64,000 nucleotides of DNA from Waterburya sp. (GCA_965217895.1 CBDCJV010000002.1:512001-576000); one strand, 5' to 3'; shown: positions 2,872 to 62,102, numbered from the stretch's first letter. Notes: generated by a model from the sequence alone, not told the origin. Translations and numbers: made by a program.

Positions 2872-2889
2872 TTGAAGAACTTGTGAGGA
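2872..2889 (-). promoter_or_regulatory. Island direct-repeat box upstream of hsp20
   Basis: TCCTCACAAGTTCTTCAA-N10-TATTCT. Confidence 0.8.
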
Positions 2890-2916
2890 TTATCTAATTA
2901 TTAGTTTATATGATGA

Positions 2917-3387
2917 TTAATTACTGCTCGATGTCTTTGGAGTACTGGTGTTATTAGGGTTTACAGACTGCTTAAAGCTATCGATCTTAACTAAGCTAGG
3001 ATCGATTTGTACAACACTAATATTCATACTGAGGACATCTTTAGCATAATAACTAACACCGCGATATTCTAGTTTGATACTAGGCTGAGAAATATAAATC
3101 CTATTTAACTCTGATTGTTTAGTCAAGATGTCATTTAAAGTGCCTGTATAGTCTCCATTTATCCTAATATTTGTCGCTCTGCTGGATTGCCAGTCTAGCT
3201 GATGGCAATTTTCAAAATATTGAACTGTATTCAATTCGCGACAAGTTTCTAAATGCTCGATTTTGTATCTACGCCAAAAGCTAAACGGATTGATGAACCT
3301 AACGTAAGTATCCGCAGCAAACAGTTGCTGGAAGTATTGACCAAAGGGAAAGCTGATTTTTACTAGTCTTTTTTCCTCTATATTCAT
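2917..3387 (-). CDS. Hypothetical protein with C-terminal L.YRGVSY (DUF4278-like) motif; paralog of 43830..44300
   Basis: Shares FP..YF.Q.F...NPF.FWR.YKIEHLE.C and YRGVSY with the paralog. Confidence 0.65.
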   Translation of the reverse strand: MNIEEKRLVKISFPFGQYFQQLFAADTYVRFINPFSFWRRYKIEHLETCRELNTVQYFENCHQLDWQSSRATNIRINGDYTGTLNDILTKQSELNRIYISQPSIKLEYRGVSYYAKDVLSMNISVVQIDPSLVKIDSFKQSVNPNNTSTPKTSSSN

Positions 3388-3433
3388 TATAAATCTCCGA
3401 TACTTGTGTATATTTTGAGATTAATTGAATAAC

Positions 3434-3451
3434 TTGAGAAACTTGTGAAGC
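3434..3451 (-). promoter_or_regulatory. Island direct-repeat box upstream of 2917..3387
   Basis: GCTTCACAAGTTTCTCAA-N10-TAATCT. Confidence 0.7.
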
Positions 3452-3455
3452 CAGG

Positions 3456-4682
3456 CTAATTGTGATTTTTAATAGCGTAAGCCTGTTGTGCAATTGCCCA
3501 ATCTTCTTGAGTATGAATTACCAACACTTTTACAGTTGAGTCAACAGCAGCAACATTCATATCGGTAGGATTAGCATTATTTTTATCTAAATTATTTTTA
3601 TCTAAATTCAACTTCAAACCTAGATAGCTCAATCCCGCACAAGTTTGTTCGCGAATTATAGCTGAATTTTCACCCACTCCCGCAGTAAAGACTAAAACAT
3701 CTAAACCATTTATACTGGCTACCATTGCGCCTATAGAACTTTTTAAGCGATGTAGATAAATATCAAGGGCTAATGATGCTCTTTTATTTCCCTCGGCGAT
3801 CGCTTCTGAAATAGCTCTTATGTCCCCAGATATTCCAGAAACTCCTTTTAAACCTGAATTTTGATTTAATATCTGACTTACCTCCTCGAAAACTAAGCTA
3901 TATTCCTGCATCATGTAGAGCGGAATCTGAGGATCGATTGAACCACAGCGAGTACCCATCATTAAGCCTTCCAGGGGAGAAAAGCCCATCGTGGTATCGA
4001 TACAGATCCCGTTATCGATCACAGCCAGAGAACAGCCATTACCTAAATGACAGGTAACAATTTTAAGAGATTCTAATGGTTTCTGAAGAATTTGAGCAGC
4101 GCGGTTAGCGCAATACTCATGGGAAATACCGTGAAAGCCATAACGCTGAATGCCCTTCTCGTAATATTCATAAGGCAAAGGATAAACTTTTGCTGCTTCA
4201 GGGAGCGTTGTATGAAACGCTGTATCAAATACAGCTACTTGAGGTACAGGTACTTCGGGCAGTATTTCTTTGATCGCATTGATGCCTTCGAGATGAGCAG
4301 GATTATGATTGGGAGCAAGGGGAATTAGATCGGCGATCGCCTTTTTAACCTCATCATCAATTGGAGTAGCCTGACTATATTTTGCCCCGCCATGCACTAC
4401 TCGATGACCTACTAAATTGATTTCCTCAAGACTCTCTAAAACTTTAGTTTCTCCCTGAACTAGAGTACTCAATAGAACGGTTAAAGCAGTATCACGCTCT
4501 TGAACTTCAATTTTCTGTTTAATACCGTTACTTTTAACAGTTAAAATACCCCCCGACTGCGCTACCGTCCAATCGAGGTGAGCCGACCATAATGGTTTTG
4601 AAGCAGTGGGGAAAGGTTCTTCAAGAATATAAAGACAGCTTTTTTGGCTGCTAGAGCCTGCGTTTAGAACTAATATGTTCAT
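3456..4682 (-). CDS. ackA: Acetate kinase
   Basis: LVLNAGSSSQK, GHRVVHGG, FDTAFH, YGFHGISH, HLGNGCS, FTAGVGENS. Confidence 0.97.
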   Translation of the reverse strand: MNILVLNAGSSSQKSCLYILEEPFPTASKPLWSAHLDWTVAQSGGILTVKSNGIKQKIEVQERDTALTVLLSTLVQGETKVLESLEEINLVGHRVVHGGAKYSQATPIDDEVKKAIADLIPLAPNHNPAHLEGINAIKEILPEVPVPQVAVFDTAFHTTLPEAAKVYPLPYEYYEKGIQRYGFHGISHEYCANRAAQILQKPLESLKIVTCHLGNGCSLAVIDNGICIDTTMGFSPLEGLMMGTRCGSIDPQIPLYMMQEYSLVFEEVSQILNQNSGLKGVSGISGDIRAISEAIAEGNKRASLALDIYLHRLKSSIGAMVASINGLDVLVFTAGVGENSAIIREQTCAGLSYLGLKLNLDKNNLDKNNANPTDMNVAAVDSTVKVLVIHTQEDWAIAQQAYAIKNHN

Positions 4683-4743
4683 TCTCAACCTTTTTCGTAA
4701 GGATTAGTAGTGTTGTCATTAGATAATCCAGAACCTACTCAAA

Positions 4744-5448
4744 TCACAAGGGAATTTTATTGATAACTTTCACTGCTGAATCAAATTCGTAGATAATGGG
4801 GACTCCCGTGGCTAGCTCCAATTTTGGCACTTCTTCAACAGATAATTTGTCTAAATCCATAATTATGGAGCGTAATGAATTACCATGAGCCACGACTAAA
4901 ACCGTTTCGCCATTTTTCAGGTGAGTAAAAATGCGATCTCTAAAGAAAGGTAAAACTCTAGCTCTAGTATCTTCTAGGCTTTCACCCCCTGGAGGTCGAG
5001 TGTTATAGGAGCGTCGCCAGAGATTGACCTGCTCTGCTCCATATTTTGCTGCTGTTTCAGTTTTGTTTAAACCCTGCAATTGCCCATAATACCGTTCATC
5101 TAAGTTTAATGTGGTAAAAATCGGCAATTCTTGAGTGCGATCGCCTTCATATTTGTCCCAATCATGCCAATTGGGATCATTAGTAAAATGTTTAATAATA
5201 GGGGTTTTGCCTCCACAAATTTCACTGCACTCAGTCAAGCAAATAATGGCTGTCTCTATTGCTCTGATTAATAAGCTGGTGAAACAAACGTCTATTCGCT
5301 CGTCGCTTTTACTCAATTTACGAGAGGCGGTAATCGCTTCAGCACGCCCTTTCTTGCTCAGAGGAACATCGACCCAACCTGTAAACCTGTTTTGGGCGTT
5401 CCAAAGGCTTTGTCCATGACGAATTAAAATTAGTCTAGCCACAATCAA
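4744..5448 (-). CDS. gpmA: 2,3-BPG-dependent phosphoglycerate mutase
   Basis: LIRHGQS.WN..NRFTGWVDV, LDERYYG.LQG, VAHGNSLR. Confidence 0.95.
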   Translation of the reverse strand: MIVARLILIRHGQSLWNAQNRFTGWVDVPLSKKGRAEAITASRKLSKSDERIDVCFTSLLIRAIETAIICLTECSEICGGKTPIIKHFTNDPNWHDWDKYEGDRTQELPIFTTLNLDERYYGQLQGLNKTETAAKYGAEQVNLWRRSYNTRPPGGESLEDTRARVLPFFRDRIFTHLKNGETVLVVAHGNSLRSIIMDLDKLSVEEVPKLELATGVPIIYEFDSAVKVINKIPL

Positions 5449-5449
5449 A

Positions 5450-7852
5450 CTATTGAGACCATTTCCAGTTAGTAATCTCTGGCTTATCCATCCCCTGTTC
5501 GTGAGCGTAAGCCAGATTGTCGATAATCTCGTTTTTCATCCGTTCTCTGACATAAACGGCTCTCGAACCAAGTTTTTCGACTCGATCTATAACATCGATG
5601 ATTAAGTTAAAGCGATCTATTTGATTTAGCATCGCTAGCTCTAAAGGCGTATTGATATTACCCTGCTCTTTATAGCCTCTGACGTGAATCCGCTCTTGAT
5701 TAGTGCGACGATAGGCTAGTTTATGAATCAACCAGGGGTAGCCGTGAAAGTTAAAGATTACTGGTTTGTCAGGAGTGAACAGAATATCAAATTCTTTGTT
5801 GGATAAGCCGTGAGGATGTTCACGTTCCGACTGCAAGCGATATAGATCGACCACGTTAATAAACCTAACTTTCAGTTCGGGAAACTCTTCGCGCAATATC
5901 GCTGTGGCTGCCAAAGATTCCATTGTCGGAATATCGCCACAGCAAGCCATAATTACGTCAGGTTCATCTGCTGCTTTTCCACAGTCATCGTTACTCGCCC
6001 AATCCCAAATACCGATACCCTTGGTACAGTGCTTTACCGCTTCATCCATTGTCAGATATTGCAGGTGATTTTGCTTGTCGGCAATGATCACGTTGACGTA
6101 ATCCTTACTCTTCAAACAGTGGTCGGCAACGGATAATAAGCAGTTAGCGTCGGGCGGGAAATAAATGCGGGTAACATCCGCACTTTTGTTTGTTACTACG
6201 TCAATAAAGCCTGGATCTTGATGGGAAAAGCCATTATGATCCTGTCGCCAGACTAAAGAAGATAGCAGCAGATTGAGAGAAGATACGGGAACGCGCCAGG
6301 GAACGTGCTTTTTACAGATTTCCAACCATTTGGCGTGCTGGTTAAACATGGAGTCGATGACGTGAATAAATGCTTCATAACTATGGATAAATCCGTGTCT
6401 GCCAGTAAGCAAATACGTCTCCAGCCAACCTTCAAGGGTATGTTCGCTCAACATCTCCATTACTCTGCCATTGGGTGATAACTGACTGCCATCTTCATCC
6501 TCTGGAAGATAGTCTGCCATCCACGCTTTCTTAGTAACTTCGTAGATATCCTGTAGGCGATTAGAAGCAGTTTCGTCGGGTCCAAAGACGCGAAAGTTGG
6601 TCATGTTGTGCTTCATCACATCTCGTAAAAACTTACCCAATACTCTGGTGTTTTCGACTTCTACCGTTCCTGGCGTTTCCATTTCTATGGCATAATCGTT
6701 AAAGTCAGGCAGCTTGAGATCTTTTCTCAAAAGTCCGCCATTAGCTACAGGATTGGCACTCATGCGTTTAATACCGACTGGAGCGAGTTCTTTGAGTTCG
6801 GGAATCAAAGTACCATGCTCGTCAAACAATTCTTCTGGTTTGTAGTCCTTCATCCACTGTTCGAGAAGCTTTACGTGTTCTGGGTTAGAGTGCATTCCTC
6901 CCATTGGTACTTGATGCGATCTCCAGAATCCTTCTACCTTGTGTCCGTCTACTTCTGCTGGTCCCGTCCAGCCTTTGGGAGTTCGTAAAATAATCATGGG
7001 CCAACGAGGTCGAAAGGCTTTATTTTGGCTACGGGCTTCCTGTTGATATTCTCTAATCTTGACAATGCACTCTTCCATGACTCCCGCCATTTTTTGGTGC
7101 ATGGTTTCGGGGTCTGAACCTTTTACTACATAGGGAGTATAGCCATAGCCTTCAAACAATTTAGTCAACTCTTCCTCACTAATACGAGCCAGAATTGTCG
7201 GGTTGGCAATTTTGTAGCCATTTAGGTTGAGGATCGGCAATACTGCCCCATCGCGGATGGGATTGAGAAATTTGTTGGAGTGCCAAGCCGTCGCCAATGG
7301 TCCTGTTTCTGCTTCCCCATCTCCTACTACACAAGCAACTATTAAATCGGGATTGTCGTAGGCTGCACCAAAGGCATGGGAAACGCTGTAGCCTAGTTCT
7401 CCTCCTTCATGAATTGAACCAGGGGTTTCAGGGGTACAGTGACTGCCGATATAACCAGGAAATGAGAATTGCTTAAAAAACTTTTGCATTCCCGATTCGT
7501 CCTGGCTTTTGTCGGGATAAACTTCGGAATAAGTTCCTTCAAGATATACGGGTCCTAGTACTCCAGGTGCGCCATGTCCTGGTCCTGCAATAAAGATAGA
7601 GTTGAGGTCGTACTTCTTAATCAGGCGATTGAGGTGAATATAGGTAAAGCTAAGTGCGGGAGAAGAACCCCAATGTCCTAACAGTCGTTGTTTGATATGT
7701 TTTGCCTGAAGGGGTTCTTTGAGTAAGGGATTATCTCGCAGATAAATCATGCCCACTGCTAGGTAGTTACAGGCACGCCAATAGGCATCTATTTTGCGAG
7801 CTTCTTCTGTGTTTAGGGCAGTCGTTGAATCTGTAGAGGGAGTAGATACCAT
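5450..7852 (-). CDS. xfp: Xylulose-5-P/fructose-6-P phosphoketolase
   Basis: [42 protein letters not shown]. Confidence 0.97.
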
Positions 7853-7907
7853 GATATTTCTATTAATGAAGGTAAAAACTAATTTGCTAGATCTCTGTAG
7901 CGCGAAA

Positions 7908-8903
7908 CTAAAAATTAAGCTGACTGAAAACTTCTTGGAGAACTTGAGCCGAATGACAAAGCTGTTTCTCTTCTCTAGGGCTTAAATCTAAATTAACAGT
8001 TTTGAGTATACCTTTTTCGCTGACTACTCTTGGTAAACCCAGACACACATTGTCAATACCGTACATTCCATCTACTAAACCGCTAACTGTAAGAACTCTT
8101 TCCTGACTGCGTAGAATCGCTTTAACGATATCGGTTACAACTAAACCGATCGCATAAGAAGTATATCCTTTGCGCTGAATAACGTCATAGGCTGCATTTT
8201 TGACGCGATCGAATATAGCAGTTAATTCTTGGCGATCGCTTTCTTTAAAATTCTCCCAATCTTGGGACAATAATTTTCGACCTGCGACATTCGCTGTACT
8301 CCAGACAGGAACTTCACTATCACCATGTTCGCCGATGATATAAGCATGAACACTACGAGCATCAATATTTAATTTACTTGCTAGCAAAGTGCGAAATCTA
8401 GAGGTATCTAATACCGTTCCCGAACCGATCACTCTAGAACTGGGAAAGTCAGAAATTTTAAGTGCTACGTAGGTCATAATGTCTACGGGATTGGTCACAA
8501 TCAATAGAATAGCGTCTGGACAATATTTGGCTACATCAGCCAAAATATTTTGATAAATAGCAATATTGCGACCTAGTAAATCGAGGCGAGTCTCGCCTGG
8601 TTTTTGCGCTGCGCCAGCCGTAATAATTACGATGTCTGCGTCTTTACCTGCATCAGCTACAGTTCCAGCTACAAGCTCAGTAGGATCGATCAAAGACATA
8701 CCATGAAGCATATCCATGACTTCTCCCTCAACTTTTTGAGTTTCAAGATCTTGCAAGACTAGCTCATCAAAGCAGTTTTGGATCAGTAAGGAATAGGCGC
8801 AGGCTAATCCAACCTGTCCTAAACCAATAATGACTCCTTTACGGGGACGAAGAATATTTGTTGATTCGGCTTCAGAATTGAGAGTAAAAATTTGGTCGAA
8901 CAT
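7908..8903 (-). CDS. ldh: L-lactate dehydrogenase
   Basis: [40 protein letters not shown]. Confidence 0.95.
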
Positions 8904-8933
8904 AAAGCTTGCTTGAGTATTAATCACTAACTA

Positions 8934-9296
8934 TTAACTCATAACCCATTCCAAAGCTCGATCTCTTTCGTCAAAAGTAAAATGCTTGACTTCAATGCTA
9001 TAAAACAAAGTATTACCCAGTGCTGCCAAAGCTTCTAACCATTTGCGATCGCTGACAATTGCTTCTTTTTCAAAATCATTAAGATGCTGCAAACTGAATT
9101 TTAGGTCTTTAATAAATGCACCCAATGACATTCCCGACCAATTCTTGATCTCAGCATAGATTCTTAATTTTCCCTCCTGCTTCAGTCTTGGTTCAATCAA
9201 TTTAGTTATGCGATCGATATCTTCAGTATCAATCCAGCCATCAATATCCAAGCCAATAATATGGTCTGGTTTGTGAGGAATAAGTCGAACAGTCAT
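8934..9296 (-). CDS. SpoIIAA-like (STAS/SEC14) protein
   Basis: About 120 aa, DGWID.ED...KLRIYAE...F.K.AIVSD..W...EVKHF...ALEW pattern; start taken at MTVR after a GGAG RBS. Confidence 0.8.
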   Translation of the reverse strand: MTVRLIPHKPDHIIGLDIDGWIDTEDIDRITKLIEPRLKQEGKLRIYAEIKNWSGMSLGAFIKDLKFSLQHLNDFEKEAIVSDRKWLEALAALGNTLFYSIEVKHFTFDERDRALEWVMS

Positions 9297-9327
9297 AATT
9301 AATTCTCCTATTTTTTTCAAATCAAGC

Positions 9328-9942
9328 TCATGCACAAACAGTAGTTTCAACACTTTCACTAGAAGCTGAAACTTCTGGGACAGGAGTCTGAACGATCAAA
9401 ACCGAGCAGGGAGAGTGATGCACGACATAGTTGCTAACGCTACCCAAAAACAATTCTTTCAAACCAGAATGTCCTCGTCTGCCAATAACTACAATATCGG
9501 CATGACAAGACTGGGCAAAGTCACAAATAGTTGTGCTTGGATGTCCCGTAATTTGACTAAACTCTGTCTGAACTCCTGCTGCGTTTGCGGAGCTAGAGTG
9601 GGCGGAAATGCTGCTTCGCAAGCAGCTTATTCCACGCCCGCTAGAAGACATCGCTTTTTTCATATAAGAACGCATCATCTTGATTCCTTGCTGCTTAAAC
9701 TCTGACCATTCGCGATCAAATTCTTCGTTGGCTCGACGCATAATTCTCGGATCGACATGAATACAGCGATCTTTATGATGTACAAAGTAAGGAGACATCT
9801 GCGGAGTTCCTGATTCTTCGGCACACAATACATGAAGCAGAATTAAGTTTCCTCCAACAGCTTTAGCTAAAGATAGAGCCTCTTCAAACACCTGTTTACT
9901 TACTGTCGAACGGTCAATTGCCACCAATATTTTTTTGCTCAT
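9328..9942 (-). CDS. Universal stress protein with a 22-aa in-frame insertion
   Basis: KILVAID.S, G.RG.SGLKELFLGSVSNYV.HH.PCSVL. Confidence 0.92.
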   Translation of the reverse strand: MSKKILVAIDRSTVSKQVFEEALSLAKAVGGNLILLHVLCAEESGTPQMSPYFVHHKDRCIHVDPRIMRRANEEFDREWSEFKQQGIKMMRSYMKKAMSSSGRGISCLRSSISAHSSSANAAGVQTEFSQITGHPSTTICDFAQSCHADIVVIGRRGHSGLKELFLGSVSNYVVHHSPCSVLIVQTPVPEVSASSESVETTVCA

Positions 9943-10029
9943 TTTTCAAACCTCTGTTAATAGTTAATAAGCAGCGATCGCCTCTTTCATTAGATTTTCA
10001 AAATTTGAGAGTGTGATTAAGACGCAGAA

Positions 10030-10578
10030 TTAAAATTCATTAGTAAGAAGTTCTTGTTGATCGACTGTTTTTTTTGATTCAGAAGATAATCGCTCGGACT
10101 CGGAATTTACGGAATTACGAACTATCAACACCGAGCAGGGTGCATGATGGGTTACATAGTTACTCACGCTACCAAGAAACATTTCTTTTAATCCTTTGAG
10201 TCCCCGACTACCAACCAAAATTAGATCAGCTGACCAATTACCTGCTAACTCACAGATCATCCGTCCTGGATTTCCAGTCAGTTGAGTAAATTCCGTATCT
10301 ACTCCTCTGGCTGTGGCTTCTTTAGTTAGGTCTTGAAGAAAATTTAGCCCCCATTGTCTATACTCTTTCAACTGTTTTTGGTACGCTTCGTATTCATGAT
10401 TGTCCACCATAGGAAAATAGGTATATGTGAGTAATTCTGGATAGTTCGCTTCCGTTTCGGACATGATATGAAGCAGCATTAATTCTGCATCATTAGTTTG
10501 AGCCAAAGATACAGCAGTCTTAAAAATAGATTGATTGTTTTCAAAGCGTTGTACAGCTACTAAAATTTTGTTAATCAT
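10030..10578 (-). CDS. Universal stress protein
   Basis: GSRGLKGLKEMFLGSVSNYVTHHAPCSV; tandem paralog of the next gene. Confidence 0.95.
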   Translation of the reverse strand: MINKILVAVQRFENNQSIFKTAVSLAQTNDAELMLLHIMSETEANYPELLTYTYFPMVDNHEYEAYQKQLKEYRQWGLNFLQDLTKEATARGVDTEFTQLTGNPGRMICELAGNWSADLILVGSRGLKGLKEMFLGSVSNYVTHHAPCSVLIVRNSVNSESERLSSESKKTVDQQELLTNEF

Positions 10579-10606
10579 GATGAATACCTTTTATTGAAGT
10601 TAGGAG

Positions 10607-11155
10607 TCAAGAGTCAGAGGTCAGAAGTTCTTGCTGGTTATCTGCTTTTTCTGACTCTGCCAGGGTTTGTTTGGCATCAACGTTAATTGAGGTTCGCATA
10701 ATTAAAACCGAACAGGGTGCATGATGGGTGACATAATTGCTAACGCTACCGAGAAACATTTCTTTAAGTCCCTTTAGTCCCCGACTACCGACCAAAATTA
10801 GATCGGCTGACCAATTACCTGCAAGTTCGCAAATCATGCGTCCTGGGTTTCCAGTCAGTTGAGTAAATTCCGTATCTACTCCTCTGGCTGTAGCTTCTTG
10901 GGTTAGGTTTTGCAGAAAATCTAATCCCCACTGTTTATATTTAGCCAGCTGTTTCTGATACGTATCGTATTCGCGATCGTCTTCGAGGAAATAATAAGTA
11001 TAAGTAGGCAGTATGGGATAACCTGATTCACTGCTGGAAACAACGTGAACCAGCATTAGCGATGCACCAGTAGTTTGGGCTAAAGATACTGCCGAATTAA
11101 AAATCGATTTACCGTTTTCAGAACGGTCTACGGCTACCAGAATTTTGTTAATCAT
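10607..11155 (-). CDS. Universal stress protein
   Basis: Same USP motifs; conserved C-terminal core nearly identical to 10030..10578. Confidence 0.95.
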   Translation of the reverse strand: MINKILVAVDRSENGKSIFNSAVSLAQTTGASLMLVHVVSSSESGYPILPTYTYYFLEDDREYDTYQKQLAKYKQWGLDFLQNLTQEATARGVDTEFTQLTGNPGRMICELAGNWSADLILVGSRGLKGLKEMFLGSVSNYVTHHAPCSVLIMRTSINVDAKQTLAESEKADNQQELLTSDS

Positions 11156-11172
11156 GATAAATACCTCTTAAT

Positions 11173-11207
11173 GAAGTCAGAAGTCAGAAGTCAGGAGTCA
11201 GGAGTCA
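11173..11207 (+). repeat. Heptamer tandem repeat (GRAGTCA)x5
   Basis: gaagtca x3, ggagtca x2; overlaps the ppsA stop codon. Confidence 0.8.
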
Positions 11208-13804: not shown

Positions 13805-13822
13805 TTGAAGAACTTATGAGGA
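13805..13822 (-). promoter_or_regulatory. Island direct-repeat box heading the fermentation operon
   Basis: TCCTCATAAGTTCTTCAA-N10-TATAAC. Confidence 0.85.
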
Positions 13823-48973: not shown

Positions 48974-48979
48974 GACTTA

Positions 48980-54272: not shown

Positions 54273-54290
54273 TTGAAGAACTTATGAGGA
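54273..54290 (-). promoter_or_regulatory. Island direct-repeat box upstream of the usp-ABC-marC-mscS unit
   Basis: TCCTCATAAGTTCTTCAA-N10-TACATA; a degenerate opposite copy TCCTCActccatATTCAA at 54305-54322 faces sucrose synthase. Confidence 0.85.
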
Positions 54291-54371: not shown

Positions 54372-56789
54372 ATGTCCTATTTAATTGAAGCAATTTTAAA
54401 TTCCGCAGAAAAAAAAGATCTCAGAGAATTTATCAGTCAGTTGACAGCATCCGAGCAAAAATATTTGCTACGCAACGATATTCTCAATTCCTTTAATTTG
54501 TTTTGTCAAACAAAGACTAATCCAGGGCAATACTACGATCGTTCTAATCTGGGCAAGTTAATTTACTATACCCAGGAGATTATCCTCGAACAAGAAAGTA
54601 TTTGTCTAATTATCCGTCCTAAGATTGCCCGACAAGAAGCTTATCGGCTATTTGAAGATTTAAACTATGAATCGATGACGATTCAACAACTGCTAGACGC
54701 ACGCGATCGCTTTGTCGATCGTTTTCATCCCGAAGAAGGAGACGTATTGGAAATTGATTTTCGATCCTTCTACGATTATTCCCCCATGATTCGTGACTCC
54801 AAAAACATTGGCAGAGGCGTACAGTTTCTCAATCGCTATCTTTCTAGTAAGCTTTTTCAAGATCCTAATCAGTGGTTGGAAGCTCTCTATAGCTTTTTAA
54901 GTCTCCATAGCTATAACGGCACTACCTTGCTGATTAACGGCAGAATTAAAGACCGCCAACAGTTAAGCGATCGCGTTAAACAAGCGTTAAATCTTGTCAG
55001 TGGACTGCCAAAAGATAAATCTTATGAAGAATTTCGCTTTGAATTACAAAACTTGGGTTTTGAACCAGGTTGGGGCAACACCGCCAGTAGAGTTAGAGAA
55101 ACCCTAGATATTCTAGATGAATTGATTGACTCCCCTGACGATGGGGTTCTCGAAGCCTTCTTGTCTCGCATTCCGATGATTTTTCGTATTGTCTTAGTCT
55201 CGGTTCATGGTTGGTTTGCCCAAGAAGGAGTTTTAGGTCGTCCTGACACTGGCGGACAGGTGGTTTACGTCCTCGATCAAGCTAGAAGTCTAGAACAACA
55301 ACTACATGAAGATATTTCTCTCGCTGGTTTGGATAGTCTCAAAATAGAACCCAAAGTAATTATCCTGACTCGGCTAATTCCCAATAGTGATGGAACTCGT
55401 TGTAACGAACGATTAGAAAAAGTTCACGGTACTAATAACGCCTGGATTTTGCGCGTACCTTTAAGAGAATTCAACCCCAATACTCAAAACTGGATTTCTC
55501 GCTTTGAGATTTATCCCTATCTCGAAACCTATGCAATTGATGCCGAGAAAGAACTTTGTGCCGAATTTCAAGGTATTCCCGATCTGATTATCGGTAACTA
55601 TTCCGATGGTAATTTAGTTTCCTTTCTCCTTGCCCGTCGCTTAAAAGTTACTCAGTTTACTATTGCCCACGCTTTAGAAAAATCCAAGTATTTATTTAGT
55701 AACCTGTATTGGCAAGATTCAGAATCTACTTATCATTTTTCCTTACAATTTACTGCCGATTTAATTGCCATGAATGCAGCCAACTGTATTATCAGCAGTA
55801 CCTATCAAGAAATCGCTGGAAGAGCAGATAGTGTAGGACAATATGAGTCCTATGATAATTTCACCATGCCCGACCTTTATCATGTGGTTAATGGTATCGA
55901 ACTATTCTCCCCGAAGTTTAATATCGTTCCCCCTGGAGTTAATGAAAACATTTACTTCCCTTATACCCGTTCTGAAGATCGCGTTGCTTCTAAAACCGAA
56001 AAATTAACAGAATTACTCTTTACTAGCGAAGATCCTAGCTTTATTTTCGGCAAGTTAGAAGACCCTAGCAAACGTCCTCTCTTTTCGATGGCGAGATTAG
56101 ATCGGATTAAAAACCTGACTGGTTTGGCAGAATGTTTTGGGCGATCGCCCGAATTACAAGAACGGTGTAATCTTATTTTAGTCGCGGGTAAAATCCACGG
56201 TGCAGAAACCGAAGATAATGAAGAAAGAGCAGAAATTGAGAAGATGTATCGCATCATCGAACAGTACGATCTTCATGGCAAGATGCGTTGGTTGGGTCTG
56301 CGTTTACCAAAAGCCGAATCTGGAGAAATCTATCGAGTTATTGGCGATCGCCAAGGCGTATTTATCCAACCTGCTTTATTTGAAGCCTTTGGTTTGACAA
56401 TTTTAGAAGCGATGATTTCTGGTTTACCTACCTTCGGGACGCAATTTGGTGGTCCATTAGAAATTATTCAAGATGGAGTCAACGGCTTTTATATTAACCC
56501 AACTAATTTAGAAGAAACTGCTCCAAAAATTTTAGAATTTGTTCGAGGGTGCGATCGCCACCCCGATTATTGGCATGAGATTTCCGATCGAGGTATAAAA
56601 AGAGTTTATAGTACCTACACTTGGAAAATTCATACAACGAAATTGCTATCTCTGGCTCGTATTTATGGTTTTTGGAACTACACCTCTAAAGAACAACGAG
56701 AAGATCTGTTGCGTTATATCGAAGCTTTGTTTTATTTAATTTACAAGCCCAGAGCGAAACAATTGTTAGAACAACATAGGCAACGTTGA
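54372..56789 (+). CDS. sus: Sucrose synthase
   Basis: GVQFLNRYLS, LGRPDTGGQVVYVLDQ, HALEK.KY, MARLDRIKN, EAFGLT. Confidence 0.96.
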   Translation: MSYLIEAILNSAEKKDLREFISQLTASEQKYLLRNDILNSFNLFCQTKTNPGQYYDRSNLGKLIYYTQEIILEQESICLIIRPKIARQEAYRLFEDLNYESMTIQQLLDARDRFVDRFHPEEGDVLEIDFRSFYDYSPMIRDSKNIGRGVQFLNRYLSSKLFQDPNQWLEALYSFLSLHSYNGTTLLINGRIKDRQQLSDRVKQALNLVSGLPKDKSYEEFRFELQNLGFEPGWGNTASRVRETLDILDELIDSPDDGVLEAFLSRIPMIFRIVLVSVHGWFAQEGVLGRPDTGGQVVYVLDQARSLEQQLHEDISLAGLDSLKIEPKVIILTRLIPNSDGTRCNERLEKVHGTNNAWILRVPLREFNPNTQNWISRFEIYPYLETYAIDAEKELCAEFQGIPDLIIGNYSDGNLVSFLLARRLKVTQFTIAHALEKSKYLFSNLYWQDSESTYHFSLQFTADLIAMNAANCIISSTYQEIAGRADSVGQYESYDNFTMPDLYHVVNGIELFSPKFNIVPPGVNENIYFPYTRSEDRVASKTEKLTELLFTSEDPSFIFGKLEDPSKRPLFSMARLDRIKNLTGLAECFGRSPELQERCNLILVAGKIHGAETEDNEERAEIEKMYRIIEQYDLHGKMRWLGLRLPKAESGEIYRVIGDRQGVFIQPALFEAFGLTILEAMISGLPTFGTQFGGPLEIIQDGVNGFYINPTNLEETAPKILEFVRGCDRHPDYWHEISDRGIKRVYSTYTWKIHTTKLLSLARIYGFWNYTSKEQREDLLRYIEALFYLIYKPRAKQLLEQHRQR

Positions 56790-56998: not shown

Positions 56999-58858
56999 AT
57001 GAGACTTTTATTAGTAGACGATGACGAGGTGTTAGTAGATGCCCTTGCTAACCATCTCATCAAGCAGCGATATGCGGTAGACATTGCCTCAGATGGTGAG
57101 GAAGCGTGGGAATATATTGCACTTTTTAACTACGACCTAATCGTCTTAGATGTCATGCTACCAAAACTTGACGGTATTAGTTTGTGTGAAAAACTTCGCA
57201 ATCATAGTCATGGGATGCCCGTGCTGATGTTAACGGCTTGCGATCGCAGTACTGATATTGTTAAAGGGTTAAATGCTGGGGCTGATGATTACTTAGTTAA
57301 GCCATTTAATTTCGACGAGCTTACTGCCAGGATCCACGCTTTGCTGCGCCGAGAAGGTCAAAGTCTACCATCTATCTTGAAACGAGGCAGTTTAAGTCTT
57401 AATCCCAATAACTTAGAAGTAATTTATAACGAGAAACTGCTTAATTTGACAGCAAAGGAATATGCTTTGGTAGAGCTTTTTCTACGCAGTCCAAATCGGG
57501 TTTTTACTACTGAGGGAATTATTGAAAGCCTGTGGACGTTTGAAGACCCACCGACTGAGGGCGCAGTCAGAACTCACATCAAAACTCTACGACAAAAGCT
57601 AAAAACTGCTGGAGCAGCTAAAGATTTTATTGAGACGATTTACGGAGTGGGTTATCGCCTCAAGCCACTGCCTAATGAAGAACAAACTGAGATATCTGCA
57701 TCTAATTCCGAAGTACAATCGGACACGACTGCCGATCTTGCTCATCTTTGGGAACAATATAAAGATGCCATGTCCGATCGCCTAATTATCTTAGAGGATA
57801 CGGCGATTGCTTTACAAACAGATAATTTCAATTCTGCATTGAAACAGGAATCTAGGTTAGCAGCTCACAAATTAGCAGGTTCTCTAGGTAGTTTGGGGTT
57901 TGACGATGGCTCGAAGCTAGCGAGAGAATTAGAAATTTTACTTAATCTGGAAACTTTCCCCCAGCTAGACCAAATTGAGCCTTTCGAGCGGTTAGTCAAC
58001 ACTTTGAGAGCGAGACTAGAAGATCACCAGCCTGACTCTAGTTCGACTTTAGAAAGTTATCCCTTGTTATTAATTGTGGATGATGACCGCGATTTTACTC
58101 AAGAGTTAGAGATAGAAGCAGCAGCTAATAATTTCCGAACTGCGATCGCTAGTACTGCATTGCAAGCACAAGAGATAATTAGGCGCGATCGCCCTGCTAT
58201 CGTTTTACTCAAAATATTTCAGATCAAAACTGACGCTACCCCAAATAACTGTCCGATGGATAGTTTAGATTTACTAGCAGAACTTCAGCAGCAAATGCCT
58301 TCACTACCCATTGTGGTAATTCTCTCAGAGACAGCTCTGTTTAACACCAGTGAAGATTTTACCAACCGTCTGAAAATTATCCGCCGTGCAGAACACACTT
58401 TGTTAGTACAGCCTGTAACCCCACATCAAGCAATGGATGCTGTAACTCAAACTCTGCAAAGATCTGGGGCGGGAATAAAAATAACAGTTGTCGATGACGA
58501 TCCGTCAATTTTAAAGTCGATGCAAACAAGTCTCGAAGCCTGGGGATTTGAGATTACTACTCTTAATGACCCCCATCAGTTTTGGCAGGTTATTCAAACT
58601 ACTTCTCCCAATTTGTTGGTGTTAGATATAGAGATGCCCGACGTTAGTGGAATTGAGCTGTGTCATGCTTTACGAAGTGACCCAGATTGGAGTCATTTAC
58701 CCGTGCTGTTTCTCACTGCTTATCAAGACTTAGCAACTCAGGAAAGGGCTTTTGCCATAGGTGCAGATGATTATGTTAGTAAACCGATTAGGGGACAAGA
58801 ATTAGTTACCCGCATCCTCAATCGCCTGTCACGAATCCGCGCAATTCAAAGTAGGTAG
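56999..58858 (+). CDS. Multi-domain OmpR-family response regulator (REC-wHTH-HPt-REC-REC, RcaC-like)
   Basis: LLVDDD..LDVMLP..KPF; wHTH VRTHIK.LR.KL...IETIYGVGYR; HPt AHKLAGSLG; pseudo-REC (LLKIF); final REC LDIEMP..KP. Confidence 0.92.
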   Translation: MRLLLVDDDEVLVDALANHLIKQRYAVDIASDGEEAWEYIALFNYDLIVLDVMLPKLDGISLCEKLRNHSHGMPVLMLTACDRSTDIVKGLNAGADDYLVKPFNFDELTARIHALLRREGQSLPSILKRGSLSLNPNNLEVIYNEKLLNLTAKEYALVELFLRSPNRVFTTEGIIESLWTFEDPPTEGAVRTHIKTLRQKLKTAGAAKDFIETIYGVGYRLKPLPNEEQTEISASNSEVQSDTTADLAHLWEQYKDAMSDRLIILEDTAIALQTDNFNSALKQESRLAAHKLAGSLGSLGFDDGSKLARELEILLNLETFPQLDQIEPFERLVNTLRARLEDHQPDSSSTLESYPLLLIVDDDRDFTQELEIEAAANNFRTAIASTALQAQEIIRRDRPAIVLLKIFQIKTDATPNNCPMDSLDLLAELQQQMPSLPIVVILSETALFNTSEDFTNRLKIIRRAEHTLLVQPVTPHQAMDAVTQTLQRSGAGIKITVVDDDPSILKSMQTSLEAWGFEITTLNDPHQFWQVIQTTSPNLLVLDIEMPDVSGIELCHALRSDPDWSHLPVLFLTAYQDLATQERAFAIGADDYVSKPIRGQELVTRILNRLSRIRAIQSR

Positions 58859-58938
58859 TGTGGAAAATGTAATGAAGCATTATGGTAATGTATAAAGTTC
58901 CAAAGTTTGATATATTTTATTCACTTGAGTAATTCGCG

Positions 58939-60555
58939 CTAAAAATTAAAAGTGGTACGCAATACTCCTACATATTGGGTATCATTATCACTGTTATTTT
59001 CTGGATTAAAAATTGCCCAAACACCAGGAGTCACTGAGATATTATCGTTAACTTTTAAGCGATAAAATGCTTCTACGTGATAGGCATTCTCATCTTCTTC
59101 TAAGACATCACTAGATGAGACGTGGGGTGGTATGCCAAAAACAATTCCTGGCAGGTTGCCTTCTCCTCCCACATCGGGAAAAGACACCCCAATTGCTCCG
59201 TACCAAGCATTAGCACTATCGCCACTATTAACGGCGAAGGAATTTGTGCCACCAAGACCATCAGAGAGGGAACTTGTATCAGAGTTTTCCGCGTTTGCCC
59301 AAATATAGCCTCCCCAACCATGAACCTGAAAGTTATCTGAGAATTTATAAAATCCTTGCAGATCGATAATGTCGTTAGAAGTAGCTATATTATCGCCGAA
59401 AGGGGAGTTTACCAGAAGGCTACCCGTTCCGCCTATTAAGCTCACCCTATCTTCAGGGGCATAACCGTGAGAATAGCCAACGCCAAGAGCGCCTTCTTCC
59501 CCGATATATGTCAAGTGCGCCAAGGCATTGTAACCACCATTAAATAGACCATTTCCTGACAGGGAATTATTAGGATTGTCTGCTAAATAACCAACCGTTA
59601 GGGTTAGCTTGTCTGTGAAATCCCAATTGATACCCGCACCACCGCCACCGCGACGAAAGAAAGGACTATACGATCCAAATAAAGAGGGGACTCCGTTTCC
59701 ATCATCGGCAATTAAGGCAGGAGTAATGGTAGTAGTGATATCGGTATAGCCCATGCCTACTGGTCCAACTGCTACTGAAATAGAGTCATTAACTGGAGTG
59801 AAATAACGAACCTGAGCAATAAAGGCATCGTTATTGGTGTCACTGTCAAAATTTAAGCGTGTCATTCCCGTACCAGTAGCCACGGCAATTTGACTATTGC
59901 CATCCTCATCGAAAAAATTACCAAATTCTAAACGAACTCTTAGTAAATCTTCTCCTGTAAAGCTGCTTTCAAAGTTAAGACGACCACGATTAGCAAAGAA
60001 GACTTCAGATTCGTCATCATCACCACCCACCGTATTACCAAAGCTATCGCTAACAGCAGTGATAATCTCAGCAACAAGTTTAGTCGTAGTAGAAAACTGA
60101 TTGTCTTCTAATGTTGCCGTGCGTGTCTCTAATTCATCAACTCGACCGCGCAGGGTAGCTAGTTCTGCCCCAAAGTCTGCCTCCAGTCTTCGCATCATTC
60201 CTAAATCTTCTGGGTTGACCCGATTGTTACTATCGGCAACCAATTGACTAATTCGATCTAAACAAGCATTTAAACTAGCGGCAAACTCGTAACGAGTCAA
60301 AGCGCGATTACCGCGATAGGTAGAATCGGGATAACCTGAGATGCAGCCATAGCGTTCGACTAGCGATCGCAAAGCTCCATATGCCCAGTCAGTCGGTCGC
60401 ACATCGGATAACTGGTCAACTGAATTAACTTGTCCTTGTAGAGTTGGATCTGTATTTACTGGGACAGAGGGATCAAAATCGTTCAAAGGTACTGCTGAAG
60501 CAGCAGTCGATACTAGTAATGAAATAGGAAAACTGTATAAAAAGCTTTTTAACAT
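58939..60555 (-). CDS. SLH-domain OprB-type carbohydrate porin
   Basis: SV.QLSDVRPTDWAY.AL.SLVERYGC..GYPD, FSTTTKL, C-terminal LRTTFNF. Confidence 0.9.
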   Translation of the reverse strand: MLKSFLYSFPISLLVSTAASAVPLNDFDPSVPVNTDPTLQGQVNSVDQLSDVRPTDWAYGALRSLVERYGCISGYPDSTYRGNRALTRYEFAASLNACLDRISQLVADSNNRVNPEDLGMMRRLEADFGAELATLRGRVDELETRTATLEDNQFSTTTKLVAEIITAVSDSFGNTVGGDDDESEVFFANRGRLNFESSFTGEDLLRVRLEFGNFFDEDGNSQIAVATGTGMTRLNFDSDTNNDAFIAQVRYFTPVNDSISVAVGPVGMGYTDITTTITPALIADDGNGVPSLFGSYSPFFRRGGGGAGINWDFTDKLTLTVGYLADNPNNSLSGNGLFNGGYNALAHLTYIGEEGALGVGYSHGYAPEDRVSLIGGTGSLLVNSPFGDNIATSNDIIDLQGFYKFSDNFQVHGWGGYIWANAENSDTSSLSDGLGGTNSFAVNSGDSANAWYGAIGVSFPDVGGEGNLPGIVFGIPPHVSSSDVLEEDENAYHVEAFYRLKVNDNISVTPGVWAIFNPENNSDNDTQYVGVLRTTFNF

Positions 60556-60637
60556 TTGAGTACTCCAATTGTTGAGTAGCCCAATCAAAATCAACAATTA
60601 TATTAACAATTTTTTTTGGTTGGGCTTTGAGGATTAA

Positions 60638-62038
60638 TTACATGTGTTCTAATTCCATTCCGTTGGTTTCCTTGATGAAAAAGACCACGAAAAATAAGGA
60701 AATAGCTGCTGCAATAGTGTAAAGACCGTATGCCGTACCTAGTCCAAAATATTGCAGTATGGGGGGGAAAGTAGTAGAAACGGCAAAGTTTGCCACCCAC
60801 TGCATCGACGCAGCAAGGGAAAGAGCAGCACCACGAATTTTGTTGTTAAACATTTCGCCTAACAAGACCCAGACCACTGGACCCCAGGAGAATCCAAAGC
60901 AAAATACATAGAGGTTGGCTGCTAAAAGTGCGACAATACCTGCCGTTCCGCTCAAGGTAGGACTACCAGCAGCATTTACGGGTGCATTGCCAAATACTAC
61001 CGCTAACGTTCCCAAGGTTATGGTCATGCCAATCGAGCCGAGAACGAGTAAGGGTTTGCGACCAAATTTATCGACAAAGGCGATCGCAATTAAAGTAGTA
61101 ATAATATTTACCGCTGCTGTAATTACTGTAATGGTTAGAGAATCTTTTTCGGAAAAGCCGACTGCCCGCCATAAAATGCTGCTGTAGTAAAAGATGACGT
61201 TAATACCAACAAATTGCTGGAGTAAGGATAAACCAATACCGATCCAAACGATGGGCAAAAGTCCGCCACTTCTAGCTAGCAGGTCGGAAAACCTAGGCTG
61301 ACGCTCACGTAAAACCGTTTGCCGAATCTCGTTGATTTTCTCTAGGACGTTACCTTTTAAGATTTTAGTCAGAACTTTAGTTGCCTCTTCCTCTCGTCCT
61401 TGAGCAACTAAATATCTTGGTGATTCGGGAATCATTAAGGCTGAAATTCCATAGAGAACTGCTGGCGGAATTTCCGTCCAAAACATCCAACGCCAGGCTG
61501 CTATACCAAATAAAAATGGTAGTTCAGCCGAACCTGCGGATACGGCAATAAAATAGTCGCACAGCAAGGCAATAAAAATACCGATTACAATCGCTAGCTG
61601 CTGGAGTGAACCTAGCCTGCCACGCATATGAGAGGGAGAACATTCAGCGATATAAGCTGGGGCAATGACACTAGCAGCACCAACAGCAATTCCACCTAAT
61701 AATCGCCAAAAGGTAAAATCCCAGATGCCGATCGCCGCCCCAGAGCCAATCGCACTGATAGTAAATAATACCGAAGAAGCGATCATTGCCTTGACGCGAC
61801 CATAGCGATCGGCAATTTTTCCTGCATAGAACGCTCCTAGTGCCGAACCTAACAATGCTAAAGATACTGCCAGACCGACGAATACACTGTTGGCATTAAA
61901 GCCTGAAGCTAAAGCTGCCACCGCACCGTTAATTACTGCGGTATCAAAACCAAACAAGAAACCACCAAGCGCAGCAGCAGCAGCAATTAAAACTACATAT
62001 AGCGTATTGGATTTGCGACGAGAAGTAATGTTTGACAT
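60638..62038 (-). CDS. glcP: MFS glucose/sugar porter
   Basis: GGFLFGFDTAVING, D.YGR, PESPR, QQFVGINVIFYY, PVVWVLLGEMF. Confidence 0.92.
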   Translation of the reverse strand: MSNITSRRKSNTLYVVLIAAAAALGGFLFGFDTAVINGAVAALASGFNANSVFVGLAVSLALLGSALGAFYAGKIADRYGRVKAMIASSVLFTISAIGSGAAIGIWDFTFWRLLGGIAVGAASVIAPAYIAECSPSHMRGRLGSLQQLAIVIGIFIALLCDYFIAVSAGSAELPFLFGIAAWRWMFWTEIPPAVLYGISALMIPESPRYLVAQGREEEATKVLTKILKGNVLEKINEIRQTVLRERQPRFSDLLARSGGLLPIVWIGIGLSLLQQFVGINVIFYYSSILWRAVGFSEKDSLTITVITAAVNIITTLIAIAFVDKFGRKPLLVLGSIGMTITLGTLAVVFGNAPVNAAGSPTLSGTAGIVALLAANLYVFCFGFSWGPVVWVLLGEMFNNKIRGAALSLAASMQWVANFAVSTTFPPILQYFGLGTAYGLYTIAAAISLFFVVFFIKETNGMELEHM

Positions 62039-62084
62039 AAGTTGTATTTCATAAATAATTTATCGTTGGTTCATGTAAATGTCT

Positions 62085-62102
62085 GTAAGGAATTTATGAG
62101 AA
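62085..62102 (-). promoter_or_regulatory. Degenerate island box upstream of glcP
   Basis: TTCTCATAAATTCCTTAC; -10 spacing not conserved. Confidence 0.5.

What the first reader, a model, noticed from the sequence alone, without database searches (positions are those of the whole stretch)
2872..62102. 18-bp direct-repeat box with PhoB-like geometry precedes most island transcription units
Seen: 14 intergenic copies of TCCTCAyAAgTTCyTCAA (YTCA half-sites 11 bp apart) starting at 2872, 3434, 13805, 19661, 26771, 26804, 34253, 38427, 39831, 43666, 44348, 45287, 54273 and 62085. Thirteen point toward a downstream gene. In 12, a TA-initial hexamer follows after exactly 10 nt, and 9 of those are TANNNT. 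Known: the E. coli Pho box is an 18-bp direct repeat with 11-bp period lying 10 nt upstream of -10, the layout of class II activation by OmpR/PhoB-family regulators. Inference: one activator co-regulates the whole island. I do not recognise this regulon. The box differs from cyanobacterial Pho, HLR1 and L boxes but loosely resembles ManR/CopR-type ATGA repeats.
Basis: partly seen in the sequence, partly recalled or inferred. Interest (0 to 1): 0.92.

Follow-up and report, generated by a model that had tools for sequence, protein, structure and literature searches.

The report
Cyanobacterial fermentation and stress promoter box
An 18-base repeated DNA box sits exactly 10 bases in front of the promoter -10 element of about a dozen gene groups in this Pleurocapsa-type cyanobacterium and before the same kinds of genes in many other cyanobacteria, and it is likely the docking site of a complex two-component regulator that would switch on sugar fermentation, ion pumping and stress-survival genes together.

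Summary
The box TCCTCAYAAGTTCYTCAA occurs 13 times in the window (0.23 expected). In the whole 5.29 Mb genome, 23 of 27 strong copies lie in one 165 kb stretch. A TANNNT hexamer follows after exactly 10 nt in 20 of 27 own sites and 55 of 82 sites in relatives (2.5% at random positions).

The box is not private to this island. 46 of 401 sampled cyanobacterial genomes hold 8 or more copies. It recurs upstream of ppsA (11 genomes), nifJ (8) and universal stress protein genes (7).

In this genome it heads these units:
- ppsA-USP-ldh-xfp-ackA
- glgP-glgX
- P-type ATPases
- NhaP
- a ribosome hibernation factor
- Hsp20 genes

The likely regulator is an RcaC-like response regulator (REC-wHTH-HPt-REC). 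One copy lies in the window and a paralogue lies elsewhere. In at least four families the box lies next to such genes.

Island copies carry T at box position 7, and their regulator has Thr in the recognition helix. Elsewhere the box has C and the regulator has Gly.

Activation, transcription start sites and the inducing signal are untested; no RNA data were available. I found no published description. It is a new member of the PhoB-like kind.

The parts
2872..2889 (-). Box (C-type, 28.9 bits), with TATTCT at +10. An IS630-type transposase (2342-2587, 1647-2295) is inserted downstream.
3434..3451 (-). Box (C-type, 21.6 bits), with TAATCT at +10. It heads a 156-aa protein of unknown family at 2917-3387.
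13805..13822 (-). Box (T-type, 30.0 bits), with TATAAC at +10. It heads the ppsA operon.
3456..13717 (-). Inferred operon: ppsA, three USP genes, a SpoIIAA-like gene, ldh, xfp (phosphoketolase), a His_Phos_1 mutase and ackA.
   Evidence: Pfam. The genes lie on one strand with short gaps. That they form one operon is inferred.
19661..19678 (-). Box (T-type, 28.5 bits), with TAATTT at +10. It heads the P-type ATPase at 17000-19561.
26771..26788 (-). Box (T-type, 26.0 bits), with TAATCT at +10, divergent partner of the box at 26804. The next ORF is a HlyD-like fragment (25757-26485) 285 nt away.
26804..26821 (+). Box (T-type, 30.8 bits), with TAAGTT at +10. It heads DUF5335, a PII-like gene, glgP, a GNAT gene, a DUF308 gene and glgX (26878-34223).
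34253..34270 (+). Box (C-type, 21.5 bits), with TAAGCT at +10. It heads a DUF3122 gene and a P-type cation ATPase (34360-37866).
38427..38444 (+). Box (T-type, 25.4 bits), with TATTTT at +10. It heads a ribosome hibernation factor (S30AE) at 38501-38842.
39831..39848 (+). Box (T-type, 24.3 bits), with TATGGT at +10. It heads a Na+/H+ exchanger at 39977-41521.
43666..43683 (-). Box (T-type, 30.8 bits), with TATATA at +10. It heads a USP gene, TrkA and a DUF3124 gene (41747-43626).
44348..44365 (-). Box (T-type, 27.1 bits), with TAGTCT at +10. It heads a 156-aa paralogue (43830-44300) of the protein at 2917-3387.
45287..45304 (-). Box (T-type, 26.8 bits) with no -10 hexamer. It faces the 3' end of mgtC (44443-44910). 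It may be decayed or may drive an antisense RNA; this is open.
54273..54290 (-). Box (T-type, 30.0 bits), with TACATA at +10. It heads a USP gene, HlyD, an ABC ATPase, two ABC-2 permeases, MarC and MscS (45313-54172). It is divergent from susA and RR-A.
62085..62102 (-). Weak box-like site (13.1 bits, no -10) upstream of the sugar transporter at 60638-62038. It is probably not a member.
56999..58858 (+). RR-A, a 619-aa RcaC-like response regulator and the candidate regulator of the T-type boxes. Domains: REC, Trans_reg_C, Hpt, a receiver-like stretch that lacks the acceptor Asp on reading the sequence, and a C-terminal REC. Recognition helix: VRTHIKTLR.
54372..56789 (+). Sucrose synthase gene lying between the divergent box at 54273 and RR-A. 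In a relative (locus L001) RR-A starts about 110 nt from that box, with no susA between.

Best explanation
The box is a conserved promoter element fixed 10 nt upstream of a TANNNT -10 hexamer, and it is likely the binding site of RcaC-like OmpR-family response regulators that would activate transcription in the PhoB (class II) manner.

Shown:
- The box is two 7-bp direct repeats with an 11-bp period.
- It occupies the place of a -35 element, about -40 to -23 if transcription starts about 7 nt past the hexamer.
- It heads units for glycogen breakdown, phosphoketolase, lactate and acetate fermentation, PEP synthase, P-type ATPases, a Na+/H+ exchanger, TrkA, a ribosome hibernation factor, USPs and Hsp20.
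- In other cyanobacteria it heads ppsA, nifJ and USP genes.

Inferred:
- A phosphorylated dimer of RR-A (window 56999-58858) binds the T-type copies of the island.
- The paralogue RR-B (C2:4809562-4811364) binds the C-type copies.
- Each is fed by a CBS-GAF-PAS histidine kinase. HK-A lies at C2:587268-591605 and HK-B lies beside RR-B.
- The bound dimer recruits RNA polymerase carrying a group 1 or 2 sigma factor.

Predicted from gene content only: the regulon is switched on when cells are dark and anoxic or energy-starved. Glycogen would then be fermented, and ATP-driven pumps would keep pH and ion gradients.
For: Box and geometry:
- 13 hits against 0.23 expected.
- 23 of 27 genome sites of 19.5 bits or more lie in C2:514-680 kb. 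Of the 14 sites not used to build the matrix, 10 lie in 576-680 kb.
- TANNNT sits at exactly +10 in 20 of 27 own sites and 55 of 82 relatives' sites, against 2.5% at random positions. T at +11 occurs in 103 of 109 sites and A at +12 in 104 of 109.
- No sequence is conserved upstream of the box.

Conservation:
- Same-genus genomes hold up to 49 copies, with the reversed-pattern control at 5 or fewer.
- 46 of 401 class genomes hold 8 or more copies, with the control at 7 or fewer.
- The first ORF after a box is ppsA in 11 genomes, PFOR in 8 and a USP in 7.

Regulator:
- RR-A is the only one of 18 Trans_reg_C genes inside the island. Its domains are REC, wHTH, Hpt and REC.
- Boxes lie beside RcaC-like genes in many places: G014, G008 and G022, RR-B of G000, G024, five Planktothrix or Oscillatoriales loci, G030, G219 and G201, G028 and one metagenome locus.
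- Only 1 of 80 metagenome loci, mostly ordinary OmpR-type, held a box.
- All 46 box-rich genomes are among the 218 of 401 with a wHTH-HPt protein.

Sub-types:
- T-type boxes clearly exceed the control in G000, G008, G014 and G022. These are the genomes with an RR-A orthologue of 70% identity or more. Two genomes without such an orthologue show a smaller excess: G024 (8 against 3) and G015 (7 against 3).
- The helix reads VRTHIKTLR in 4 of 4 RR-A orthologues and VRTHIKGLR in 7 of 7 RR-B-like and f7 regulators.

No sigma-factor gene lies in the island.
Against: - No binding, transcription start site or expression data exist. No RNA run was available.
- Linkage can also arise if the regulator genes are merely members of the regulon.
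- G009 holds 27 C-type boxes, yet no RR-B-like gene of 47-51% identity was listed for it. Its assembly is 93% complete.
- T at position 7 also occurs in other families: G146, and one nifJ box of G340. G024 (8 against 3) and G015 (7 against 3) also show a T-type excess without an RR-A orthologue of 70% or more.
- The T-with-Thr and C-with-Gly pairing rests on one lineage, so effectively on one evolutionary event.
- The dark-anoxia signal rests only on gene content. The ion-transport, MscS, sucrose synthase and Hsp20 genes fit osmotic or desiccation stress equally well.
Confidence: 0.6

Rival explanations
1. The box is bound by a different regulator. That could be one of the 16 ordinary OmpR-family regulators of this genome (for instance an NrrA/Rre37-like one) or a protein of another family. 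The RcaC-like genes and their kinases would then lie next to boxes only because they are targets.
For: The genome has 18 Trans_reg_C genes. The kinase HK-B is itself preceded by a box in G008 and G013, which fits being a target. G009 has many boxes but no listed RR-B-like gene. NrrA/Rre37 is known to control glycogen catabolism (search listing, plus recall).
Against: No ordinary OmpR gene lies in the island. None of the other 79 metagenome loci, mostly ordinary OmpR-type (one, L061, is full-length RcaC-like), carried a box; the one locus with a box is RcaC-like. Linkage to RcaC-like genes recurs in at least four families. The recognition helix changes together with the box sub-type.
Confidence: 0.2
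2. The box is an operator for a repressor that covers the -35 region. The genes would be switched on by release of the repressor, not by activation.
For: The box overlaps the -35 position. RcaC is recalled to repress one of its targets through the same type of box.
Against: The promoters have no TTGACA-like -35 element; box positions 6-11 read AYAAGT. The strict 10-nt phasing to the -10 matches the recalled layout of PhoB activation.
Confidence: 0.08
3. The box together with the TANNNT hexamer is the promoter of an alternative sigma factor, with part of the box serving as its -35 element.
For: The spacing between box and -10 is invariant, and bases next to the box are also conserved (aTT.tt).
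Against: The direct-repeat structure with an 11-bp period is typical of tandem winged-helix dimers. TANNNT is the -10 of group 1 and 2 sigma factors. None of the 13 Sigma70_r2 genes lies in the island.
Confidence: 0.05
4. The copies are remnants of a mobile repeat or of duplicated promoters, with no shared regulation.
For: IS elements lie in the window. Some targets are paralogues: the USPs and the three 156-aa proteins.
Against: No sequence is conserved outside the box and the -10. The box sits before orthologous ppsA, nifJ and USP genes in different families.
Confidence: 0.02

Closest known systems
E. coli PhoB and the Pho box (recalled, no call)
   Same: Both are 18 bp long, made of two 7-bp direct repeats with a 4-bp spacer, lie 10 nt upstream of the -10 and replace the -35. 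Both are served by an OmpR/PhoB-type winged-helix regulator.
   Different: The repeat sequence differs: TCCTCAY here against the recalled CTGTCAT. The targets are not phosphate-starvation genes. The candidate regulator carries an extra HPt domain and extra receiver domains.
RcaC and the L box of Fremyella/Tolypothrix chromatic acclimation. The architecture and the L box are recalled. PMC13079394 passages call RcaC an OmpR-class response regulator that binds target promoters.
   Same: The regulator architecture is the same: REC, OmpR-type wHTH, HPt, REC. The site is a direct repeat of hexamers with an 11-bp period.
   Different: The recalled L-box repeat is TTGTTA, not TCCTCA. The targets are not phycobiliprotein genes. 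The partner kinases are CBS-GAF-PAS kinases, not the photoreceptor RcaE.
Mycobacterial DosR/DevR dormancy regulon (recalled, no call)
   Same: The gene content is similar: many USPs, Hsp20/alpha-crystallin, a phosphoribosyltransferase, CBS proteins and a nitroreductase-like protein (G013, read by eye only; no Pfam family).
   Different: DosR is a NarL-type regulator with a palindromic box. There is no homology to this system; the resemblance is functional only.
SigE, cyAbrB1/2, LexA and ChlR control of hox, nifJ and low-oxygen genes in Synechocystis (PMC11368403 and PMC13421787, passages seen)
   Same: The target class is the same: nifJ, hox and fermentation genes induced under microoxic conditions.
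   Different: Those regulators are a sigma factor, nucleoid-associated proteins and a MarR-type activator. The passages I saw name no response regulator and no direct-repeat box for these genes.
Hrr1 and the H box of Nostoc flagelliforme (PMC13079394, passages seen)
   Same: It is an OmpR-type factor binding 11-nt direct repeats, and it is linked to dark rehydration. The AGGAA core resembles the reverse complement of this box.
   Different: The H-box unit is AGGAATTTACM. None of the 27 boxes lies within 30 nt of any match to the 22-mer at 6 or fewer mismatches. The architecture of Hrr1 is not stated in the passages I saw.

Membership tests
PhoB-type class II activator box (works-like test) | Two 7-bp direct repeats separated by 4 bp, 18 bp in all | tested here: met
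   The sites read TCCTCAY-AAGT-TCYTCAA.
PhoB-type class II activator box (works-like test) | The box ends 10 nt upstream of the -10 hexamer, and there is no -35 consensus | tested here: met
   TANNNT at +10 in 75 of 109 sites, and TA at +11/+12 in 103-104 of 109. The -35 position reads AYAAGT.
Pho regulon (membership) | CTGTCAT-type repeats and phosphate-starvation targets (pst, phoA and the like) | tested here: not met
   The repeat is TCCTCAY. No phosphate genes were found among 97 downstream ORFs. The Pho consensus is recalled.
RcaC family of complex response regulators | Domain order REC, OmpR-type wHTH, HPt, C-terminal REC | tested here: met
   Response_reg 4-112 plus a second stretch, Trans_reg_C 148-221, Hpt 250-342. 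The alignment keeps the Asp and His columns.
RcaC family of complex response regulators | Binds the L box and controls phycobiliprotein genes under RcaE/RcaF | tested here: not met
   The box sequence differs from the recalled L box. No phycobiliprotein genes are among the targets. The neighbouring kinases are CBS-GAF-PAS kinases.
Response-regulator activation of these promoters | Regulator-dependent transcription starting about 7 nt after the -10 | not testable with these tools
   No RNA holder was listed.
HLR1/RpaB and H box/Hrr1 | TTTACA-type or AGGAATTTACM direct repeats | tested here: not met
   none of the 27 boxes lies within 30 nt of any match to the H-box 22-mer at 6 or fewer mismatches.
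OrrA regulon (Anabaena/Nostoc salt and dehydration response) | LuxR-family regulator | tested here: not met
   PMC13131328 calls OrrA a LuxR family factor. The candidate here is OmpR-type. No OrrA motif is given in the passages I saw.
NrrA/Rre37 regulon | Simple OmpR-type regulator induced by nitrogen depletion, controlling glycogen catabolism | not tested
   No NrrA sequence or motif came from any call. Only a search listing was seen.

The most novel reading that the evidence does not exclude
Many cyanobacteria share one master two-component switch for fermentative, dormant survival in the dark. It consists of a CBS-GAF-PAS kinase and an RcaC-like regulator, and it is the functional counterpart of mycobacterial DosRS. 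It turns on ppsA, nifJ, hox, USPs, Hsp20 and ribosome hibernation through this box. In one Pleurocapsa lineage the whole switch was duplicated into a 165 kb island. There it was insulated from the parent by one change in the recognition helix (Gly to Thr) matched by one change in the box (C to T at position 7).
Probability: 0.25. Interest if true: 0.8.

Novelty: new member of a known kind. Interest (0 to 1): 0.62.

Why it matters
How cyanobacteria switch on fermentation and survive dark, anoxic or dry periods is poorly understood. In the model strain only global factors are named for nifJ and hox: SigE, cyAbrB1/2 and LexA (passages of PMC11368403 and PMC13421787).

A sharply defined box with a fixed promoter geometry gives a concrete handle. 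It is present in 46 of 401 sampled genomes, sits before ppsA, nifJ and USP genes, and is physically linked to one regulator family. The regulon can be predicted from sequence, the regulator can be tested by binding assays and knock-outs, and the promoters could serve as inducible parts.

The T/C sub-types with a matching helix change would be a compact natural case of how a duplicated regulator is insulated from its parent.

Tried and rejected
- RNA evidence: no RNA holder was listed, so no reads were laid.
- Metagenome scan with the RR alignment: the patterns chosen were generic receiver motifs. Of the 80 loci, 78 are ordinary OmpR-type genes, so the scan served only as a negative control.
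- OrrA lead: sucrose synthase sits beside RR-A, and OrrA controls sus genes in Anabaena. I rejected it as the same family because OrrA is a LuxR-family factor. No OrrA motif appears in the passages I saw. PMC4178590 is not held. Slr1588 is a REC-EAL protein and not relevant.
- H box of Hrr1: no overlap with the boxes.
- Orthologues of T-type targets in five genomes without RR-A (G013, G024, G005, G003, G016): the DUF5335 gene and the 853-aa ATPase were not found with these queries. The hibernation factor was found in G024 and G003 directly after an RR-B-like gene. xfp was found in all five.
- nifJ, hoxE, protoglobin and norB were not found in G000 by tblastn at 1e-20.
- Literature: the box 11-mers occur in no relevant paper. 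No paper combines cyanobacteria, ppsA, nifJ, USP, motif and OmpR. Searches for RcaC-like regulators gave only an uncharacterised 'rcaC homolog' all5323. Searches gave no description of this box. Subscription journals and supplements, for example the SI figure of the H box, were not seen.
- Earlier scan notes held nothing on this box.


Full report
**Observation**

Shuffles give 0.23, and none of 100 shuffles gave more than 2. The 14th listed site (62085) is weak: it scores 13.1 bits against 21.5 to 30.8 for the others.

Each site is two 7-bp direct repeats separated by 4 bp.

**Genome-wide picture**

The window is C2:512001-576000 of a 5.29 Mb genome with an 87 kb second contig. I built a weight matrix from the 13 sites, read by coordinate, and scanned both contigs.
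- 27 sites score 19.5 bits or more, and the next best scores 18.7.
- 23 of the 27 lie in C2:514-680 kb, which is 3% of the genome.
- Of the 14 sites not used to build the matrix, 10 lie in 576-680 kb and 4 elsewhere (897133, 2146671, 4635920, 4812036).

**Promoter geometry**

I pooled the 27 own sites with 82 sites from relatives' loci. Those loci were chosen only for holding a box.
- TANNNT starts exactly 10 nt after the box in 20 of 27 own sites and 55 of 82 relatives' sites. At 5000 random positions every offset gives about 2.5%.
- T at +11 occurs in 103 of 109 sites and A at +12 in 104 of 109.
- Nothing upstream of the box is conserved. Just after it a weak aTT.tt is seen.
- The position where a -35 hexamer would lie reads AYAAGT.

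This is the layout I recall for PhoB-dependent promoters. It argues for an activator that replaces the -35 contact.

**Genes served in this genome**

Pfam was run on the downstream ORFs and the rest of the window. The box heads these units:
- PEP synthase, three USPs, a SpoIIAA-like protein, L-lactate dehydrogenase, phosphoketolase, a His_Phos_1 mutase and acetate kinase
- DUF5335, a PII-like protein, glycogen phosphorylase, a GNAT protein, a DUF308 protein and an isoamylase-type debranching enzyme
- two P-type ATPases
- a Na+/H+ exchanger
- a USP, TrkA and a DUF3124 protein
- a USP, HlyD, an ABC exporter, MarC and MscS
- an S30AE ribosome hibernation factor
- two 156-aa proteins of unknown family

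Outside the window the box heads two Hsp20 genes, DUF4327 and DUF7219 small proteins, pentapeptide-repeat proteins, a phosphoribosyltransferase and a sugar-binding protein. That the longer gene runs are operons is inferred from strand and spacing.

**Conservation**

The organism is a Pleurocapsales cyanobacterium.
- In 24 same-genus genomes the 18-mer with 2 or fewer mismatches occurs 0 to 49 times. The reversed-pattern control gives 5 or fewer.
- In 401 genomes of the class that are at least 90% complete, 46 hold 8 or more copies by my reading of the table. The control never exceeds 7. These 46 fall in at least ten families. The small-genome families have next to none.

I fetched stretches around boxes from 15 genomes, choosing them by box position only. 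The first ORF after a box is:
- PEP synthase in 11 genomes: G000, G030, G013, G267, G201, G347, G219, G340, G394, G361 and G192
- pyruvate:ferredoxin oxidoreductase in 8 genomes: G030, G267, G201, G347, G340, G117, G394 and G361, plus G013 at a 17.8-bit site
- a USP in 7 genomes

Other first ORFs are a HoxE-like protein, protoglobin, NorB, CBS, ADH, Pta and FtsH. G000 itself has no nifJ, hoxE, protoglobin or norB by tblastn.

The shared core is therefore pyruvate-centred anaerobic metabolism plus USPs.

**Regulator**

Of 18 Trans_reg_C genes in the genome, only one lies in the island. It is the 619-aa RR-A at window 56999-58858. Its domains are REC, wHTH, Hpt and C-terminal REC. On reading the sequence, a receiver-like middle stretch lacks the acceptor Asp. 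This is the architecture I recall for RcaC.

A 49% identical paralogue, RR-B, lies at C2:4809562-4811364. One of the four boxes outside the island lies 672 nt past its stop codon. That box drives a DUF2949 gene and faces a CBS-GAF-PAS histidine kinase, HK-B. A paralogous kinase, HK-A, is 52% identical over 371 residues. It lies in the island 11 kb beyond the window's end.

Boxes next to RcaC-like genes recur:
- RR-A orthologues in G014 (box about 110 nt upstream, divergent, driving a USP gene), G008 and G022
- RR-B-like genes in G008 (the box then drives the kinase), G024 and G003 (a hibernation factor follows directly; in G024 a box lies between the RR gene and that factor, while no box of 17 bits or more was found in the G003 locus L143)
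- G013 (boxes before the kinase and before the 133-aa neighbour)
- five Planktothrix or Oscillatoriales loci with the order RR, PAS kinase, box, 76-aa membrane protein
- family f7 genomes G030, G219 and G201, with the RR divergent from a box-driven USP gene, and by coordinates also G361, G192, G182 and G400
- G028
- metagenome locus L060

Among 80 metagenome loci (555 kb), almost all ordinary OmpR-type, only L060 held a box. It is one of the two full-length RcaC-like loci. All 46 box-rich genomes are among the 218 of 401 that encode a wHTH-HPt protein. None of the 13 sigma-factor genes lies in the island.

**Two sub-types**

Position 7 of the box is T in 10 of 11 sites between 525 and 567 kb. 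It is C in the 2 sites at 514-515 kb and in all 9 sites at 617-680 kb.
- Across the genus, T-type boxes clearly exceed the control in G000 (11 against 4), G008 (9 against 4), G014 (21 against 0) and G022 (17 against 2). G024 (8 against 3) and G015 (7 against 3) are weaker.
- The first four are exactly the genomes with an RR-A orthologue of 70% identity or more.
- C-type boxes are widespread.
- Orthologous ppsA and xfp operons carry C-type boxes in G013 and G024.
- The recognition helix reads VRTHIKTLR in 4 of 4 RR-A orthologues. It reads VRTHIKGLR in 4 of 4 RR-B-like and 3 of 3 f7 regulators.
- By my recalled alignment to PhoB, this residue matches a base-contacting arginine.

I read this as a duplicated two-component system whose island copy may have shifted its specificity. 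It rests on one lineage, and T also occurs at this position in other families.

**Signal**

The signal is not testable here. The combination fits survival without photosynthesis or respiration: glycogen breakdown, phosphoketolase, lactate and acetate formation, PFOR and hydrogenase in relatives, ATP-driven cation pumps, a hibernation factor, USPs and Hsp20. Osmotic or desiccation stress is a fair alternative, given MscS, TrkA, NhaP and sucrose synthase.

**Known or new**

- No paper in the searchable library holds the box 11-mers in a relevant context.
- Passages of a 2026 review and a 2024 study name only SigE, cyAbrB1/2, LexA and ChlR for hox, nifJ and low-oxygen genes.
- OrrA is a LuxR-family factor.
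- The H box of Hrr1 does not coincide with these boxes.
- A 'rcaC homolog' of Anabaena is listed only as uncharacterised.
- Subscription papers and supplements were not seen.

I file the finding as a new member of the PhoB-like kind. It works like a Pho box, and the candidate regulator has the RcaC architecture. It is a member of neither regulon.

Noticed in passing
window 19707-23594: A P-type cation ATPase gene is split into a C-terminal part (19707-21374) and an N-terminal part (22461-23594). The ORFs between them (21575-22464, plus strand) have no Pfam family and look like an inserted element.
   Followed up: partly
window 1647-2587: An IS630-type transposase lies in three ORFs (HTH_Tnp_IS630 and two DDE_3 pieces). 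It sits directly downstream of the box at 2872 and separates the box from whatever gene it once served.
   Followed up: partly
window 14400-16760: A likely restriction-modification pair: an N6_N4 DNA methylase (15292-16356) next to a 306-aa protein with no Pfam family, plus a small HTH-like ORF. It interrupts the run of box-driven units.
   Followed up: no
window 2917-3387, 43830-44300 and C2:678798-679268 (L038:10798-11268): Three paralogous proteins of 156-157 aa with no Pfam family (one weak DUF4278 hit). Each has its own box.
   Followed up: partly
L042:4971-8585 (G201) and L048:5051-8665 (G340): The box-driven PEP synthase genes of two other cyanobacteria are 1205 aa long. They carry an intein-splicing domain inside the mobile domain.
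   Followed up: no
C1:15883-18240: The 87 kb second contig carries a second PEP synthase gene, 54% identical to the G013 ppsA used as query. No strong box lies nearby.
   Followed up: no
L037:8329-9398 (C2:618329-619398): Two adjacent ORFs each match part of the Photo_RC (D1/D2) family. This is a split or diverged psbA-like gene inside the C-type box cluster.
   Followed up: no
G030, G219, G361, G192, G182, G400: In family f7 the REC-wHTH-HPt module is the N-terminus of open frames of 1200-1770 aa. There the regulator may be fused to further signalling domains.
   Followed up: no
window 27232-27531: A 99-aa PII-like protein and a DUF5335 protein precede glycogen phosphorylase in one box-driven unit. 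This may be a small-molecule sensing module for glycogen breakdown.
   Followed up: no
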